Below are positions 41,155 to 56,976 of a DNA stretch of 64,000 nt, piece after piece. This DNA comes from an uncultured Myxococcales bacterium. Its GTDB lineage: Bacteria; Myxococcota_A; UBA9042; CAZBRS01. Location: assembly GCA_964494475.1 (NCBI GenBank), contig CAZBRS010000013.1, positions 11,057 through 75,056 of the forward strand. Direction: 5' to 3'. The position numbers and the translations under genes were made by a program. The number at the start of each line of letters is the position of its first letter. Positions within the stretch are counted from its first letter, which is position 1. The notes under the pieces are model-generated. The model was not told the DNA's origin. It worked only from the letters and a program-made list of their open reading frames with translations, and did no database searches.

Positions 41155-44100
41155 CTAAAACCCGTAGCCGCTGGGCACTCGGTTGTTCGAGAGCTCGATG
41201 CGGTACGACACGCACCCGGGGATGCGGTCGGCCTTGGCCCGCACGGCCAGATAGACCGTGCGCGAGTAGACGACCGCCGCGTGGCCGGGCGCTTCGGTGT
41301 GGTTGCAGTACGGTCGCCCGTCGACGTACACGTTGCACCCTTCGCAGTCGGGGTAGTCGTTCCAGGGGTCGGCGTCACCGTTGTCGGTGGGACCGTGCAC
41401 TCCCTGCTCGGCCGCCGCCGTGCAGCAGGACTCGTTGCACGTCGTGCCCGCATCGGGGTTCGGGCAGGCGCCCACGTATTCGGTGCAGGTGAGGAGGCCG
41501 CCGTCCGTCTTGGTCCCCTTGGTGCTCCAGAGGTACTCGGCGTTCGTGGCGACCACGCACGTGTCGTCGTCGGCGCACGCGTTCTCGGTGACGCGGATCT
41601 CGGCCGCGCCCGATTGGTCGTCGGTCAGGACGACGCGCGCCGAGAACGAGTTGGTGTTACCGGGCTCGCCCGTGCTATCGACGAACGAGACGCGGTACAT
41701 GTCGACGTCGTCGACGCTGGAGAGCATGCCCACGACGATCTTTTCGGACCCGCCGCTGGCGTCGGACAGCACGCCCAGGTTGTAGGCGCTGGCGCAGGCC
41801 CCCGGCACGTCGATCACGCCCGCCGTGGCGTCGTTGACGGTGCACTCGCAGCCGTTGGCGTCGACCGTGTCGAGGTTGCTGGTGCCATCGGGGCACACCG
41901 TGAGCGTACACTCCCAGCCGTCGGCCTCGGAGCCGACGTACGGGGAGAACTCGTCGGGAGTGGGATTGCCGCCGGTGCACGTGTAGCTGCCCGGCGTCGT
42001 GCCGTAGGGCGCGACGCAGAGCGAGGAATCGCCGCTGTCGGCGTTGGTCCCGTCGCAGTCGGTGTCGACGCCGTCGCACACCTCGACCGTGCCAGGATGT
42101 ACGTGCTCGGCGGCGTCGTCGCAGTCGTTGCCGGTGCCGACCGGGGTGAGCGGGCACGCGACGTTGTTGGAGACGGTGAGCCCCGCTCTGCAGTAGTTGT
42201 CGCCGTCGTCGTCGCAGCCGTCGTCGACGCGTCCGTCGCAGTTGTCGTCGAGGTTGTTGCACGTCTCGGCGGCCGGCTGCTGAGCGCCCGAGCAATAGGT
42301 GCCCAGTTGGTCGCTCCGACACGTCGTGGAGCCCGTGCCGCACGCGCTGCTGCCACAGGGCTTGCCGACGCCGTAGACGTCGTGGCCGTCGGCGAAGACG
42401 GAGAAGTCTTCGTCCGTGCCGCTGTCACAGTCGTTGTCGGTGCCGTCGCAGCGATCTTCGGCGCCGTCGCTGTAGAGCGGGTTGTTGGCCTCGTACTCGG
42501 CGCCCGAGCAGTTGGTCCAGAACCCGCCGACGCAGAGCCCCGGAGATCTCTTCGCGCCCGTACAGGCGCCGATCTGCTTGTCGCAGAGCGGTCGATCGTG
42601 GGTCGCCAGGTCGGTGGGATCAGCGCTGTCGAGCAGGCCGTCACAGTCGTCGTCGACCCCATTGCAGATCTCGTTGCCGGCCAGCGCCGCGGTCGAACAG
42701 TACATCGCGTCGCCCGTCGGCGTGCAGCGTGCCACGCCGTTGGCACAGGCCCCAGCGCCGCAGGCTGCGCCGACCGAGGTCACGACCGCGCCGTCGGGCG
42801 TCGTGAACGAGAATCCCTCGTCGGACTGGCCGTCGCAGTCGTTGTCGTTGCCGTCGCAGCGTTCGGCCGTGACGTTGTTCTCGCTCGTACAGTAGGTGCC
42901 CGTGGTGTCGGCGCGACAGGCCGTGACGCCCCCCTGGCAGTTGCCCGTGCCGCACGAGACCCCCAGCCCCGAGACCGTCTGGCCGTTCAACTGCACCATG
43001 GAGAAGTCTTCGTCCACGGCGCCGTTGCAGTCGTTGTCGACGCCGTCGCAGGTCGTCTCGCCGCTCGGCTGGTAAACTCCGAACTGGGAGCGGTAGGCCG
43101 CGGCGTCGCAGTTTCCCCAGTAGCCGCCGGGGCCGCAGAGGCGAGCCGGCTTCTTGACGGACGCGCAGGGCCCCAGGAGCCCCGTGCACGCGGGCTGGTC
43201 GTAGCGGAGGAGGCCGTAGCTGACCAGGTCGTTCAGATCGGCGGCATCTGCGAGGCCGTCGCAGTCGTTGTCGATGGCGTCGCAGATCTCGTTGGAGGCT
43301 GACTCCTCGGCCGGGCAGTAGACGCCGAGGCCGTCGGGTCGGCACTGGGAGAAGTGCTTCCACGGCTCGGCCGGATCGACGACGGCGCAGGCCCCCACGC
43401 CGCACGCGACGCCGGTGCCGTCGATGACCTCGCCGTTCAGGAGCGTTCCGAGGAAGCCGTTGTCGATGACGTTGTCACAGTCGTTGTCCTTGCCGTCGCA
43501 GTGCATCTCGAAGGCGCCGTCGTAGTCGGCGTTGTTGGCTTCGTAGTCGGCGTCGGTGCAGGGTTTCCAGGCTCCTCCCTGGCAGAGCTGCTTGGAATGG
43601 TACGCGTTCGCGCACGAGCCGTGCAGCTTTTCGCACTGCTCGGCGCGCAGCGACGCGTCGGCGGCGTCCTTGAGGCCGTCACAGTCGTTGTCCTTGCCGT
43701 CGCAGGTCTCGGGCCGGCTGTTCACGAAGCTGGAGCACGTGATGCCCTTGTAGTCGGCGTTGGGGTCGCACACCGTCACGCCCCCGACGCACTCGCCCAC
43801 GCCGCAGGTCTTCCCGATGCCCTGGAGGATGGTCCCCTCGGGCATGGTGACCGAGAAGTCTTCGTCGGTGCCGCCGTCGCAGTCGTTGTCGAGCGCGTCA
43901 CACGTGATCTCGAGCGACGCCTCGTAGTTGGGGTTCAGATCCAGATACGTCGCGGCCGTGCAGGGCTGCCAGGTTCCACCCACGCAGAGGTTTGGCGTGC
44001 GGTAGGCACCCGCGCACACGCCCACCTGAAGCGGGCAGGCCGGATGGTCGTAGGTCTCGAGGTCGGGATCGAGCCCGTCCTTCTTGCCGTCGCAGTCGTC

Positions 44101-56100: not shown

Positions 56101-56976
56101 GCACGCGCCGAGGCCGCCGGCTTCGCACACCCGTTCGCCATGGCAGGTGCCGAACTGGTTCTGGAGGTAGCAGGCTGTGGAGGCGGCCTCGGCGATGGCC
56201 TGCTCGCTGCACGCGCAGTCTCCGCCCTCGGCCCGTACGCACTGGTTTTCGGAGAATCCGCCCGGCAGGAGCACCGGGTCGCACGTGTACCCGGTGGGGC
56301 AGGGCAGGGTGGTGCCGCAGCCGGCGCCGCAGAAGCTGCCCGCGCCTTCGCGGTCGAGGCACACGCCGCCGGCCAGGTCGAAGGGACCTCCGCAGTCGGC
56401 GTCGGCGTCGCACGGGCGGCAGAGGTCGGTGAACATCCACGCGCAGATGGACTGGCAGGCCGGACAGGTGCCGGGCACTTCGACGCAGGCCCAGCCGGGC
56501 TCGTCGCACGAACCCTCGCACGTCACGGTGCAGACCAGGCCGTCGGGACCGGCCACGCACTGCCCCGAGGCGCAATCGTCGTTGGCGTCGCACGCGCATC
56601 CGAAGCCGGCCACTCCCGGCTCGCACGAGACGGCCTCGGCCTGGTCGAGTTGGTCGACGGGCACGTCGCCGTCGGGGGGCAGGTCGGCGTCTCGAATATC
56701 GAGGTCCGGGGCCTGGTCCTGGCCGCCGACGTCGTCGGTCGGCACATCGAGGTCGGCGTCGGGCGCGTCGAACGCGCCGTCGTCGGCCACGTCGGGCACC
56801 TTGATGATCTCGAGGTCGGGCAGATCGAACCCGGCGTCGAGGTCGCCGCGGCCGTCGACGACCTCCTCGGGGCGGACGTCGACGACGTCGTCCGTGACGG
56901 CGCTGCCTCCTCCACACGCGGCGAAGCCGAGTGCGACGAGGACGCCGACGAACAAGCTCTTGAAATTTTGATGCAT
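41155..56976 (-). CDS. Giant (~5,273 aa) secreted/lipoprotein: Cys-rich N-domain, thrombospondin type-3 Ca-binding repeats, ~25 tandem MopE-like Cys-rich modules, unique C-terminal domain
   Basis: The in-frame ATG ([25 protein letters not shown]) has a signal peptide and lipobox. TSP3 consensus DxDxDGxxDxxDNCPxxxNxxQxDxDxDGxGDxCD recurs ~15 times. A ~135-aa unit is then repeated ~25 times: CDxxDNDCDGxxDEDF...G.G.CG.G.C.GG...C...CNGxDDDCDG.TDA.DPD...C..Q.GVC.G..KP..LC..G.W..C. The C-terminal ~350 aa are unique. The antisense 3698-aa ORF is an artefact. Confidence 0.85.
42700..52900 (-). repeat. Approx. 10-kb array of ~405-nt in-frame tandem coding repeats (MopE-like putative metal-binding modules)
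   Basis: Boundaries were estimated from residue positions ~1350-4750 of the giant ORF. The repeats are diverged at the amino-acid level, with conserved Cys, Asp and Gly positions. Confidence 0.65.
53600..55550 (-). repeat. Thrombospondin type-3-like calcium-binding repeat region (coding)
   Basis: The region has repeated DNCPxxxNxxQxDxDxDGxGDACD units. The coordinates are approximate. Confidence 0.55.

What the first reader, a model, noticed from the sequence alone, without database searches (positions are those of the whole stretch)
41155..56976. 15.8-kb single gene for a ~5,273-aa surface protein combining TSP3 calcium repeats with ~25 MopE-like metal-binding modules
The gene takes a quarter of the window. 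Its architecture is a lipoprotein signal, an acidic linker, a Cys-rich domain, ~15 thrombospondin type-3 repeats (DxDxDGxxDxxDNCP...), then ~25 tandem ~135-aa modules each carrying two CDGxDNDCDGxxDE putative metal-binding motifs, and a unique ~350-aa C-terminal domain. This many Asp/Cys ligand motifs implies a large Ca and possibly Cu/metal-binding capacity. The protein may act as an adhesin, S-layer-like matrix protein or metal-sequestering surface shield.
Basis: partly seen in the sequence, partly recalled or inferred. Interest (0 to 1): 0.6.

Follow-up and report, generated by a model that had tools for sequence, protein, structure and literature searches.

The report
Giant calcium-repeat lipoprotein of a myxobacterium
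This is a real, intact 15.8-kb gene from an uncultured myxobacterium that encodes a 5,273-residue lipid-anchored protein made of calcium-type acidic, disulfide-rich repeats; it most likely forms a long stalk carrying a fast-evolving end domain, it is not a copper protein, and it belongs to a catalogued but unstudied protein family.

Summary
Window 41155..56976 (- strand) is one intact ORF of 5,273 aa (538 kDa, pI about 4) with GC3 0.93. It starts with a lipoprotein signal peptide. It passes Pfam thresholds for TSP_3 and PF11617.

I count 11 thrombospondin type-3 core units and 26 tandem 135-aa modules plus one extra half-module. The last ~290 aa form a beta-rich domain with no family model.

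It is not an assembly artefact:
- The modules are only 51-69% identical at DNA level.
- Both gene ends are confirmed by independent contigs.
- A syntenic ortholog in a related species (CTP synthase 92% identical) is called at 5,252 aa and is colinear module by module over the 1,427 aa I could read.

The "MopE-like, possibly copper" reading is not supported. PF11617 matches only the N-terminal segment of MopE that is invisible in its crystal structure. No His or Met is conserved. Between orthologs, Cys is 100% and Asp 80% conserved, against His 47%.

Best reading: a Ca2+-loaded, disulfide-stapled stalk, tethered at its N-terminus, that presents a rapidly diverging C-terminal head. I class it as a new member of a known kind, of moderate interest.

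The parts
56977..57191 (.). Intergenic region between the giant gene and the divergent NYN+cold-shock-domain gene. Presumed promoter and 5' UTR.
   Evidence: Sequence read. ATG 57192 is in frame with the NYN ORF, and the 353-aa product read from 57192 is found by exact look-up as a called gene on independent contigs. No sigma-70 consensus or terminator was found, so promoter function is only inferred.
56914..56976 (-). Lipoprotein signal peptide, residues 1-21, ending in lipobox GFAA-C21. The residue at +2 is Gly.
   Evidence: Translation. It matches a PS51257-type regex, as do the homologs L088, L001, L008 and L054.
56632..56913 (-). Acidic Asp/Pro/Val-rich linker, residues 22-115. It has no Cys after C21 and a net charge of about -25. 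Presumed disordered tether.
   Evidence: Composition by region. Similar acidic linkers follow the lipobox in L001, L008, L031 and L088.
56077..56631 (-). N-terminal Cys-rich domain, residues 116-300, with 27 Cys. It has no Pfam or NCBIfam model.
   Evidence: It is 34-40% identical to the same position in the lipoproteins L001, L008 and L031. No family hit was found.
53170..56076 (-). Mixed region, residues 301-1269: PF11617 units interleaved with thrombospondin type-3 repeats. The 11 TSP3 cores lie at residues 415-1056 (window 53809..55734).
   Evidence: Pfam TSP_3 at 91.7 bits. PDB matches: COMP 3fby at E 4.8e-43 and thrombospondin-2 at about 1e-42. The repeat cores were counted by regex.
42271..53169 (-). 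26 tandem A-B modules of ~135 aa, residues 1270-4902, plus one extra B half-module at residues 4704-4767. Each half is a CDGxDNDCDGxxD(E/A) acidic loop followed by a 4-Cys sub-domain. Each module has 12 invariant Cys.
   Evidence: Module alignments. HMM count of 26. The AlphaFold2 model of module 8 has pLDDT 92.4. DNA identity between modules has a median of 62% and a maximum of 69%.
42025..42270 (-). Last pair of ordinary PF11617 units, residues 4903-4984.
   Evidence: Pfam hit at E 5.7e-9 on the C-terminal 371 aa, with the best stretch at residues 49-75 of that segment.
41158..42024 (-). C-terminal domain, residues 4985-5273. It has a C..C..GCEC knot followed by a beta-rich core with a Cys-rich insertion, and it ends ...[11 protein letters not shown]. 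This is the fastest-evolving part of the protein.
   Evidence: - Remote homologs occur at the C-termini of other proteins, one of which (P0072) also carries TSP3 repeats (E 1e-5 to 6e-4).
- It is 36% identical to the C-terminus of L087, E 1.5e-42.
- It is 47% identical to the ortholog, with dN/dS 0.73, against 56-75% and 0.39 for the modules.
- The AlphaFold2 model is weak (pLDDT 48) and has an all-beta core.
- No Pfam or NCBIfam model matches.
41155..41157 (-). Stop codon. The gene converges on a 436-aa Cys-rich gene that ends at 41141.

Best explanation
**What it is.** This is a functional chromosomal gene of an uncultured Myxococcota bacterium. It encodes a 538-kDa, very acidic lipoprotein.

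**Proposed mechanism.**
1. The protein is exported by Sec and lipidated on Cys21. Its roughly 450 cysteines are oxidised to disulfides in the envelope.
2. About 83 DxDxDG-type acidic loops (TSP3 repeats plus 60 PF11617 motifs) load with Ca2+.
3. The TSP3 'wire' and the 26 A-B modules then form a long, stiff, protease-resistant stalk.
4. The stalk is tethered at its N-terminus through a disordered acidic linker. It carries the ~290-aa beta-rich C-terminal domain at its far end.
5. That distal domain is the working end, for adhesion to or recognition of cells, prey or matrix.

**Shown here.** The ORF is intact. The domain make-up is confirmed. The lipobox is present. Cys and Asp are strictly conserved. 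Total length and module order are conserved in an ortholog. The head domain diverges fastest.

**Inferred.** Ca2+ binding, an extended shape, exposure on the cell surface, and adhesion.

**Ruled out as unlikely.** It is not a MopE-type copper protein.
For: **Real gene.**
- GC3 is 0.93.
- Pfam hits appear only in this frame.
- Independent contigs match both ends at 99.8-100%.
- A syntenic ortholog is called at 5,252 aa.
- That ortholog is colinear over its last 1,427 aa at 61% identity with 6 gap openings.
- dN/dS across the modules is 0.39.

**Structural constraint on disulfides and acidic loops.**
- All 119 aligned Cys are conserved between orthologs. Trp is 85% and Asp 80% conserved, against His 47% and Met 38%.
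- Each module has 12 invariant Cys and the invariant residues D8/D10/D12/D19.

**Calcium chemistry.**
- The TSP3 region matches the Ca2+-binding wire of COMP and thrombospondin-2 at about E 1e-42.
- The core of PF11617, DNDCDG, is itself a DxDxDG motif. There are 83 such motifs against 5.5 expected.
- The half-A motif aligns without gaps to the teneurin C-rich core. By my own renumbering of the teneurin-1 fragment onto teneurin-4, eight of the nine ligand side chains named for the 1.5 A Ca2+-bound teneurin-4 structure (PMC9058538) have counterparts inside that alignment. The ninth, E835, lies outside it, with a Glu one residue out of register.

**Stalk-plus-head logic.**
- The anchor is at the N-terminus, in this protein and in its homologs.
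- Module number varies among homologs (7-8, 15 and 26) while the ends differ. This is as expected of an extender.
- The head is the most diverged part, at 47% identity and dN/dS 0.73.
- In Myxococcus TraA, a Cys-rich region is likewise read as a stiff presentation stalk for a variable recognition domain (PMC12045341).
Against: - There is no experimental datum on localisation, metal content or shape.
- An N-terminal lipid anchor in a diderm does not prove surface exposure. No dedicated secretion partner is encoded nearby, and the flanking genes are housekeeping.
- Bacterial TSP3 repeats also occur as periplasmic linkers, for example in the TraB/OmpA type (PMC12045341).
- The teneurin resemblance scores only 7-16 bits. 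It is not recovered in PDB-wide searches.
- The module model has no Foldseek match in the PDB.
- The C-terminal domain model is of low confidence (pLDDT 48), so its fold and binding role are guesses.
- The high dN/dS of the head could reflect relaxed constraint rather than diversifying selection. NG86 estimates are unreliable at GC3 0.93.
- The central 13 kb of this particular assembly has no independent contig. Support for it comes from the low repeat identity and from the length of the ortholog.
Confidence: 0.5

Rival explanations
1. It is a calcium-binding polyanionic matrix or envelope scaffold. It would act in bulk as an S-layer-like coat, an extracellular-matrix or biofilm component, a Ca2+ buffer or a mineral nucleator. 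The repeats themselves would be the function, and no head domain would be presented.
For: - Net charge is about -820 and pI 4.05, with 83 DxDxDG loops.
- Many homologs consist almost only of half-A or half-B arrays (L026, L031, L008, L003).
- The head domain is weakly constrained.
Against: - Total length and module order are conserved between species. The conserved C-terminal ending ...SNN....GF recurs in three homologs. Both point to a defined single-molecule architecture with a specific end.
- No self-assembly domain or S-layer family was found.
Confidence: 0.2
2. It is a periplasmic lipoprotein. It would be tethered to the inner leaflet of the outer membrane or to the inner membrane, and would act as a Ca2+-dependent envelope spacer or stabiliser.
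For: - The only export signal found is a Sec/lipobox signal.
- Bacterial TSP3 repeats occur in periplasmic linkers of TraB/OmpA-type proteins (PMC12045341).
- A conserved neighbour is an outer-membrane-type TIGR04551-like protein.
Against: - A 538-kDa protein with a ~3,600-residue tandem array is far larger than a periplasm about 30 nm wide would need (my own knowledge).
- The TSP3 region is closest to the model for MtsC, a Myxococcus cell-surface cohesion protein, although below cutoff at 277 bits.
- The homolog L038 ends in a tail that looks like a C-terminal surface-sorting tag: Cys, a hydrophobic helix, then Arg-rich residues. This is seen by eye only, and no HMM hit supports it.
- The archaeal homolog L043 ends in what looks by eye like a hydrophobic transmembrane stretch followed by Lys-rich residues.
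Confidence: 0.12
3. It is a copper (or other transition-metal) capture or sequestration protein that works like MopE/CorA, as the Pfam name suggests.
For: - PF11617 hits are far above threshold.
- IMAC data suggest that the first 24 residues of MopE* contribute to weak Cu(II) binding (PMC3423442).
- A CutA1 gene lies two genes away, and lies directly adjacent in the ortholog locus.
Against: - The match covers only MopE* residues 6-48, at E 2.7e-4. That segment is outside the Cu(I) site and invisible in the crystal structure.
- PF11617 is stated to lack specificity for MopE/CorA (PMC6189053).
- No module column conserves Met, and His reaches only 8 of 26 modules in a single column. His makes up 1.0% and Met 0.4% of the protein.
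- His and Met are the less conserved residues between orthologs.
- Every module has an even number of Cys, all invariant, which is consistent with disulfides and not with free thiols.
Confidence: 0.05
4. It is an assembly artefact (repeat collapse or expansion) or a pseudogene that only appears as one ORF.
For: - Short-read Logan contigs break inside the gene, at window positions 43047 and 56037.
- The central 13 kb of this assembly is not independently covered.
Against: - The longest exact repeat in the gene is 45 nt. Modules are at most 69% identical at DNA level.
- Tandem Repeats Finder sees no 405-nt period.
- The independently assembled ortholog is called at 5,252 aa and is colinear, including the odd extra half-module.
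- GC3 is 0.93 over the ORF as a whole.
Confidence: 0.03

Closest known systems
Thrombospondin / COMP type-3 repeat 'wire' (PF02412; PDB 3fby, 1yo8, 1ux6)
   Same: Residues ~415-1056 carry 11 DxDxDGxxDxxDNC...GDxCD units that align to COMP and thrombospondin-2 at about E 1e-42. The acidic Ca2+-ligand pattern and the Cys pairs are the same.
   Different: The context is bacterial. There is no C-terminal lectin-like domain, EGF domain or coiled coil. The repeats are interleaved with PF11617 units, and the anchor is an N-terminal lipid.
MopE / CorA copper proteins of methanotrophs (PDB 2vov), the namesake of PF11617
   Same: They share the short CxGxDNDCDG acidic motif.
   Different: Only MopE* residues 6-48 match, a segment that is disordered or cleaved in the crystal structure. 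The His/His/kynurenine Cu(I) site and the MopE fold are absent.
Teneurin C-rich Ca2+-binding domain (teneurin-4 residues 834-871, 1.5 A structure, PMC9058538)
   Same: There is a gapless motif alignment, DGxDNDCDGxTDxxDPD against DNLDNDGDGLTDCVDPD. By my renumbering of the teneurin-1 fragment onto teneurin-4, eight of the nine named Ca2+-ligand side chains are matched in it. Tucker et al. had already aligned PF11617 to this region (PMC3278476).
   Different: The cysteine pattern is different. The score is only 7-16 bits and is not significant in PDB-wide searches. Teneurin has one copy, whereas this protein has 60.
Myxococcus TraA (Cys-rich stalk plus variable recognition head)
   Same: The logic is the same: a disulfide-stiffened stalk presents a fast-evolving terminal domain from a lipid-type anchor (PMC12045341).
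   Different: The polarity is opposite, because TraA has an N-terminal head and a C-terminal MYXO-CTERM anchor. The repeat family differs, TraA is about 10 times smaller, and there is no PA14-like head here.
MtsC (NF047638), the TSP3-repeat MYXO-CTERM cell-cell cohesion protein of M. xanthus
   Same: The TSP3 array resembles the MtsC model at 276.7 bits.
   Different: The score is below the 350-bit cutoff. There is no MYXO-CTERM tag, and the match covers only the TSP3 part.
Giant Ca2+-rigidified repeat adhesins (RTX/BIg type, for example ice-binding or Lap-type adhesins; my own knowledge)
   Same: The design is the same: hundreds of kDa of tandem Ca2+-binding extender modules with a distinct distal domain.
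   Different: No RTX or BIg domains were found. The export signal is an N-terminal lipobox instead of a C-terminal type-1 secretion signal. The modules are disulfide-rich.

Membership tests
Thrombospondin type-3 repeat proteins (PF02412) | Profile match above the Pfam gathering score | tested here: met
   91.7 bits against a cutoff of 25, with 7 stretches.
Thrombospondin type-3 repeat proteins (PF02412) | DxDxDGxxDxxD acidic loops with the paired Cys (DNC...GDxCD), and homology to solved Ca2+-loaded wires | tested here: met
   11 core units found by regex. COMP 3fby at E 4.8e-43 and thrombospondin-2 at E 3e-42.
Thrombospondin type-3 repeat proteins (PF02412) | Actual Ca2+ binding | not testable with these tools
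   This needs ITC, ICP-MS or a structure.
PF11617 'putative metal-binding motif' proteins | Profile match above the gathering score | tested here: met
   191 and 389 bits against a cutoff of 27. 60 motifs found by regex.
MopE/CorA copper-binding proteins | Homology to the structured MopE*/CorA domain that carries the His/His/kynurenine Cu(I) site | tested here: not met
   Only MopE* residues 6-48 match, at E 2.7e-4. The module profile finds nothing in the PDB. No His or Met column is conserved. The location of the Cu site comes from PMC3423442.
Bacterial lipoproteins (PROSITE PS51257-type signal) | A basic N-region, a hydrophobic stretch and a lipobox ...[AGS]-C within the first 35 residues | tested here: met
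   [21 protein letters not shown] matches the regex, as do 4 of 5 homologs tested. The regex was written from memory of the PROSITE rule.
MtsC (NCBIfam NF047638 equivalog) | Score at or above 350 bits, and a MYXO-CTERM tag | tested here: not met
   276.7 bits. No hydrophobic C-terminal tag is present, and the protein ends ...PSGYGF.
Teneurin-type C-rich Ca2+-binding domain | Eight acidic ligands plus Asn in a fixed spacing | tested here: inconclusive
   The spacing and most ligand positions match in the half-A motif. The score is only 7-16 bits, and PDB-wide searches find nothing.
Teneurin-type C-rich Ca2+-binding domain | Six Cys in the 1-3, 2-5, 4-6 disulfide pattern | tested here: not met
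   The Cys positions differ. Here a Cys sits inside DNDCDG, and there is no CC pair after the DPD.
RTX / type-1-secreted giant adhesins | RTX nonapeptide repeats or BIg extender domains | tested here: not met
   Pfam reports only PF11617 and TSP_3 at E<=0.01.
Pre-peptidase C-terminal (PPC) type beta-sandwich, considered for the C-terminal domain | Profile match to PF04151 or a confident fold match | tested here: not met
   No Pfam hit even at E<=5-10. Foldseek gives only weak jelly-roll or sandwich matches, with TM below 0.31, on a model of pLDDT 48. The DxDxYxF resemblance is from memory only.

The most novel reading that the evidence does not exclude
The 135-aa A-B module would be an undescribed Ca2+-binding, disulfide-knotted extender fold with no PDB, Pfam or NCBIfam counterpart for its two 4-Cys sub-domains. 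Its acidic loop would be the prokaryotic counterpart of the teneurin C-rich calcium site. Twenty-six of these modules would build a lipid-anchored fibril more than 100 nm long. The fibril's length would be under selection, since it is conserved between species at 61% identity. Its hypervariable C-terminal head would mediate kin, prey or substrate recognition in uncultured Myxococcota. In effect this would be a second recognition system, much larger than TraA and with the opposite polarity.
Probability: 0.2. Interest if true: 0.65.

Novelty: new member of a known kind. Interest (0 to 1): 0.38.

Why it matters
PF11617 proteins are abundant in Myxococcota, and also occur in candidate-phyla-radiation bacteria and in archaea. 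They are annotated as 'putative metal-binding', with a copper connotation that this analysis shows to be unfounded. Treating the motif as a DxDxDG/teneurin-type calcium loop gives a testable chemistry for a large, unstudied class of envelope proteins.

The conserved 26-module length and the fast-evolving head make this locus and its ortholog a good pair for asking whether bacteria tune the reach of surface fibrils. They also allow a test of whether the head is a recognition determinant. In itself, however, this is one more giant repeat lipoprotein, without experimental data.

Tried and rejected
**Structure and sequence searches that found nothing**
- Foldseek of the high-confidence module model against the PDB: the best hit had E 2.5.
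- PDB sequence searches found nothing with the module profile, the 26-residue motif profile or a half-A consensus.
- The C-terminal domain has no Pfam or NCBIfam family.
- Its AlphaFold2 model had pLDDT 48, so the Foldseek hits to jelly-roll or sandwich proteins were not used beyond 'beta-rich'.

**Homolog searches with limits**
- The C-terminal domain found no relatives in GTDB genomes.
- The module-profile protein search returned only fragments of 248 aa or less.
The central 13 kb therefore stays without an independent copy.

**Context and signals**
- There is no conserved operon partner. L087 shares no neighbours with the window. The 436-aa convergent gene is absent from the ortholog locus.
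- No sigma-70 promoter or intrinsic terminator was found at either end.
- No MYXO-CTERM HMM hit was found on the tail of L038.

**Literature**
- A search for characterised PF11617 proteins found only the teneurin and PmoD papers.
- One badly phrased query returned noise.

**Readings rejected**
- Copper protein.
- Assembly collapse.
- The 3,698-aa + strand ORF at 45979..57075, which is a shadow of the real gene. It fails the codon-position GC test.

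
Full report

Yes. The - strand is open from 57174 down to the stop codon at 41155-41157. It is followed at once by [21 protein letters not shown], which fits a PROSITE-type lipobox pattern. A G-rich stretch lies just upstream. The divergent NYN/cold-shock gene most likely begins at ATG 57192, so the additional 66 upstream codons lie in the intergenic region.

The product is 5,273 aa. Its composition is 15.5% Asp, 12.1% Gly and 8.5% Cys, with 450 Cys in all. It is 538 kDa with pI 4.05. 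Codon-position GC is 0.65/0.50/0.93, the coding signature of this ~70% GC genome. The 3,698-aa ORF on the opposite strand fails that test and is a shadow ORF.

Pfam gives PF11617 (E 2e-57 and 3.5e-119 for the two halves) and TSP_3 (E 2e-26), and nothing else.

**2. Anatomy**

| Residues | Feature | Evidence |
|---|---|---|
| 1-21 | Lipoprotein signal peptide | |
| 22-115 | Acidic linker without Cys, net charge -25 | |
| 116-300 | Cys-rich domain with no family model, shared at 34-40% identity with lipoproteins from other Myxococcota MAGs (L001, L008, L031) | |
| 301-1269 | PF11617 units interleaved with 11 thrombospondin type-3 cores; matches COMP and thrombospondin-2 at about E 1e-42 | |
| 1270-4902 | 26 tandem modules of ~135 aa, plus an extra half-module at 4704-4767 | |
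| 4903-4984 | Two ordinary PF11617 units | |
| 4985-5273 | Distinct C-terminal domain | |

Each module has two halves, A and B. Each half is a CDGxDNDCDGxxD acidic loop followed by a 4-Cys sub-domain. Twelve Cys, one Trp, one Tyr and one Phe are invariant across all 26 copies.

AlphaFold2 run on the 26-copy alignment gives a confident model, with pLDDT 92.4. It is mostly loops and short hairpins. The model has no Foldseek match in the PDB and no sequence match either.

In other proteins, halves A and B occur on their own as long arrays. L026 has 26 A units. L031, L008 and L003 have 13-14 B units. The building blocks are therefore widespread, and the strict (A-B)x26 alternation is the feature specific to this protein.

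**3. Artefact or real?**

The evidence goes against both:

- Pairwise DNA identity of the modules is 51-69%, with a median of 62%. The longest exact repeat in the gene is 45 nt.
- Tandem Repeats Finder sees no 405-nt period.
- Independent contigs from other assemblies match window 34128-43047, 38302-41489 and 56037-59636 at 99.8-100%. Both ends of the gene are therefore confirmed.
- Most tellingly, a JGI contig from a related species preserves the gene order: radical-SAM cluster, CTP synthase, glyoxalase, TIGR04551-like protein, CutA1. Its CTP synthase is 92% identical. It carries, at the same place and in the same orientation, a gene called at 5,252 aa with TSP_3 and PF11617.
- The 1,427 C-terminal residues of that gene that I could read align colinearly with the window protein at 61% identity, with only 6 gap openings. 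The alignment includes the odd extra half-module.

The central 13 kb of this particular assembly has no second copy. That is the only residual doubt.

**4. What the evolutionary pattern says**

Between the two orthologs, all 119 aligned Cys are conserved. Trp is 85%, Asp 80% and Gly 74% conserved, against His 47% and Met 38%.

Orthologous modules are 56-75% identical with dN/dS about 0.39. The C-terminal domain is 47% identical with dN/dS about 0.73, and its Cys-rich insertion is 40% identical. NG86 values at GC3 0.93 are rough.

Paralogous modules are no more alike within a protein than between proteins, with best matches of about 53%. The duplications are therefore old, and there is no concerted evolution.

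Homologs with the same modules have 7-8 copies (L087, which has the same C-terminal domain, E 1.5e-42) or 15 copies (L088, which has different ends). Module number thus varies across the family but is apparently fixed between the two orthologs, which differ by only 21 residues. This last point is an inference from length alone.

A more distant relative, with CTP synthase 76% identical, lacks the gene at this locus.

**5. Which metal?**

The Pfam name 'Cu-binding_MopE' is the only basis for a copper role, and it does not hold up:

- The only match to MopE is to residues 6-48 of MopE*, at E 2.7e-4.
- The first 46 residues of MopE* are invisible in its crystal structure. The high-affinity Cu(I) site consists of two His and a kynurenine located elsewhere (PMC3423442).
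- No module column conserves Met, and His reaches only 8 of 26 modules in one column.

By contrast, the motif core DNDCDG is literally a DxDxDG loop. DxDxDG is a Ca2+-loop class, from my own knowledge of Rigden and Galperin 2004. There are 83 [DN]x[DN]x[DN]G motifs, against 5.5 in shuffles.

Tucker et al. aligned PF11617 to the teneurin Cys-rich region (PMC3278476). That region in teneurin-4 has since been solved at 1.5 A with three Ca2+ ions. Their coordination resembles that of TSP3 repeats and LDL-receptor type-A modules (PMC9058538).

My half-A profile aligns to the teneurin core without gaps. Eight of the nine named ligand side chains (D840, D843, N844, D845, D847, D851, D854, D856) have a matching residue in it. 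The ninth, E835, falls outside the alignment, where the module has a Glu one residue out of register. The numbering transfer from the teneurin-1 fragment to teneurin-4 is my own inference from the identical spacing.

This is motif-level evidence only. The scores are 7-16 bits, the Cys pattern differs, and PDB-wide searches do not recover teneurin.

Calcium is therefore the best-supported ligand. A rough, inferred capacity is on the order of 100 or more Ca2+ ions per molecule.

**6. How it most likely works**

*Shown:* an N-terminal lipid-anchor signal, an acidic tether, about 4,600 residues of Cys- and Asp-constrained repeats, and a distinct, fast-evolving last domain.

*Inferred:* after Sec export, lipidation and disulfide formation, the repeats load with Ca2+ and form a long, stiff, protease-resistant stalk. 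Because the anchor is at the N-terminus, the C-terminal domain is the distal end. It would be the working part, an adhesion or recognition head.

The same logic is proposed for Myxococcus TraA, where a Cys-rich region is read as a presentation stalk for a variable domain (PMC12045341). Here the polarity is reversed and the size is about ten times greater.

The C-terminal domain has remote homologs at the C-termini of other proteins, one of which (P0072) also carries TSP3 repeats and a PF11617-type CNGVDDDC motif (E 1e-5 to 6e-4). It is predicted to be all-beta at low confidence, and it has no family model.

Surface exposure is the weakest step. No secretion partner is encoded nearby, and bacterial TSP3 repeats can be periplasmic. 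Hints for an extracellular location come only from relatives:
- The TSP3 array resembles the model for MtsC, a cell-surface cohesion protein, but below cutoff.
- L038 ends in a tail that looks like a surface-sorting tag. This is by eye only, and no HMM hit supports it.

**7. Context and origin**

The flanking genes are housekeeping or unrelated: gltB and gltD, an NYN+CSD protein, CutA1, a TIGR04551-like outer-membrane protein, glyoxalase, CTP synthase and a radical-SAM cluster.

The convergent 436-aa Cys-rich gene is absent from the ortholog locus. L087 shares no neighbours with the window. The gene therefore stands alone.

The named best hits for CTP synthase (61-65% identity) and nearly all module-bearing loci are Myxococcota MAGs. 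Exact look-up of four flanking proteins places them on an NCBI contig of 100,606 nt, presumably the source of the window.

**8. Verdict**

This is a new, unusually large and well-conserved member of the catalogued but uncharacterised family of PF11617/TSP3 repeat lipoproteins of Myxococcota. I read it as a Ca2+-stiffened stalk with a variable head, with confidence of about 0.5. Interest is moderate at 0.38. The size, the conserved length and the calcium re-reading of PF11617 are worth noting, but nothing here overturns expectations, and no function has been demonstrated.

Noticed in passing
window 45979..57075 (+): A 3,698-aa ORF lies on the strand opposite the giant gene. It does not show the coding GC3 pattern. 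It is a shadow ORF of the GC-rich, Asp/Gly/Cys-rich gene, not a gene.
   Followed up: partly
window 41158..41200 (-); L167 17341.. ; L087 C-terminus: The protein, its ortholog and the homolog L087 all end in ...SNN[RK]x(4-5)[YQ]GF-COOH. A conserved C-terminal Gly-Phe could be a sorting or assembly signal. More distant members of the domain family lack it.
   Followed up: partly
window 39831..41141 (+): A 436-aa gene converges on the giant gene. It has an N-terminal membrane anchor and many spaced Cys pairs, and it matches no Pfam or NCBIfam family. It is present in independent contigs of the same organism but absent from the syntenic ortholog locus L167.
   Followed up: partly
window 39464..39787 (+): A CutA1 (divalent-cation tolerance) gene lies two genes from the giant gene. 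In the ortholog locus it lies directly beside it. The adjacency is conserved, but there is no evidence of a functional link.
   Followed up: partly
window 37432..39057 (-): A protein with a signal peptide that ends in YWIF. It resembles the TIGR04551 family (157 bits, below the 300-bit cutoff) and looks like an outer-membrane barrel. It is conserved in synteny in L167.
   Followed up: partly
window 22746..29984: A cluster of two B12-binding radical-SAM enzymes, a third radical-SAM protein, and an FAD/NAD/2Fe-2S reductase. The cluster is conserved in the related species (L167 1-6196). Its pathway is unknown.
   Followed up: no
window 57192..58253 (+): A protein that fuses an NYN ribonuclease-type domain with a C-terminal cold-shock domain. 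It is transcribed divergently from the giant gene.
   Followed up: no
window 7477..10788 (+): An ORF of about 1,100 aa with HEAT repeats and a C-terminal cyclic-nucleotide-binding domain. Three large upstream ORFs (3..7592) have no Pfam match.
   Followed up: no
L088 (Ga0172370_10000150) 1295..12274: A second giant lipoprotein, about 3,200 aa mature, from the same metagenome as the ortholog. It has 15 A-B modules, a TSP3 insert in the middle of the array, and a different N-terminal domain rich in 'DPCTxDxC' repeats. These lineages seem to carry several paralogous giants.
   Followed up: partly
L043, L067, L077, L079 (DPANN archaea); L027, L035 (Peregrinibacteria): Half-B-type units (a PF11617 motif plus a CGxGxC hairpin) also occur in large proteins of archaeal and candidate-phyla-radiation MAGs. 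One of these proteins is 3,506 aa and ends in what looks by eye like a C-terminal transmembrane anchor. The unit is therefore not confined to Myxococcota.
   Followed up: no
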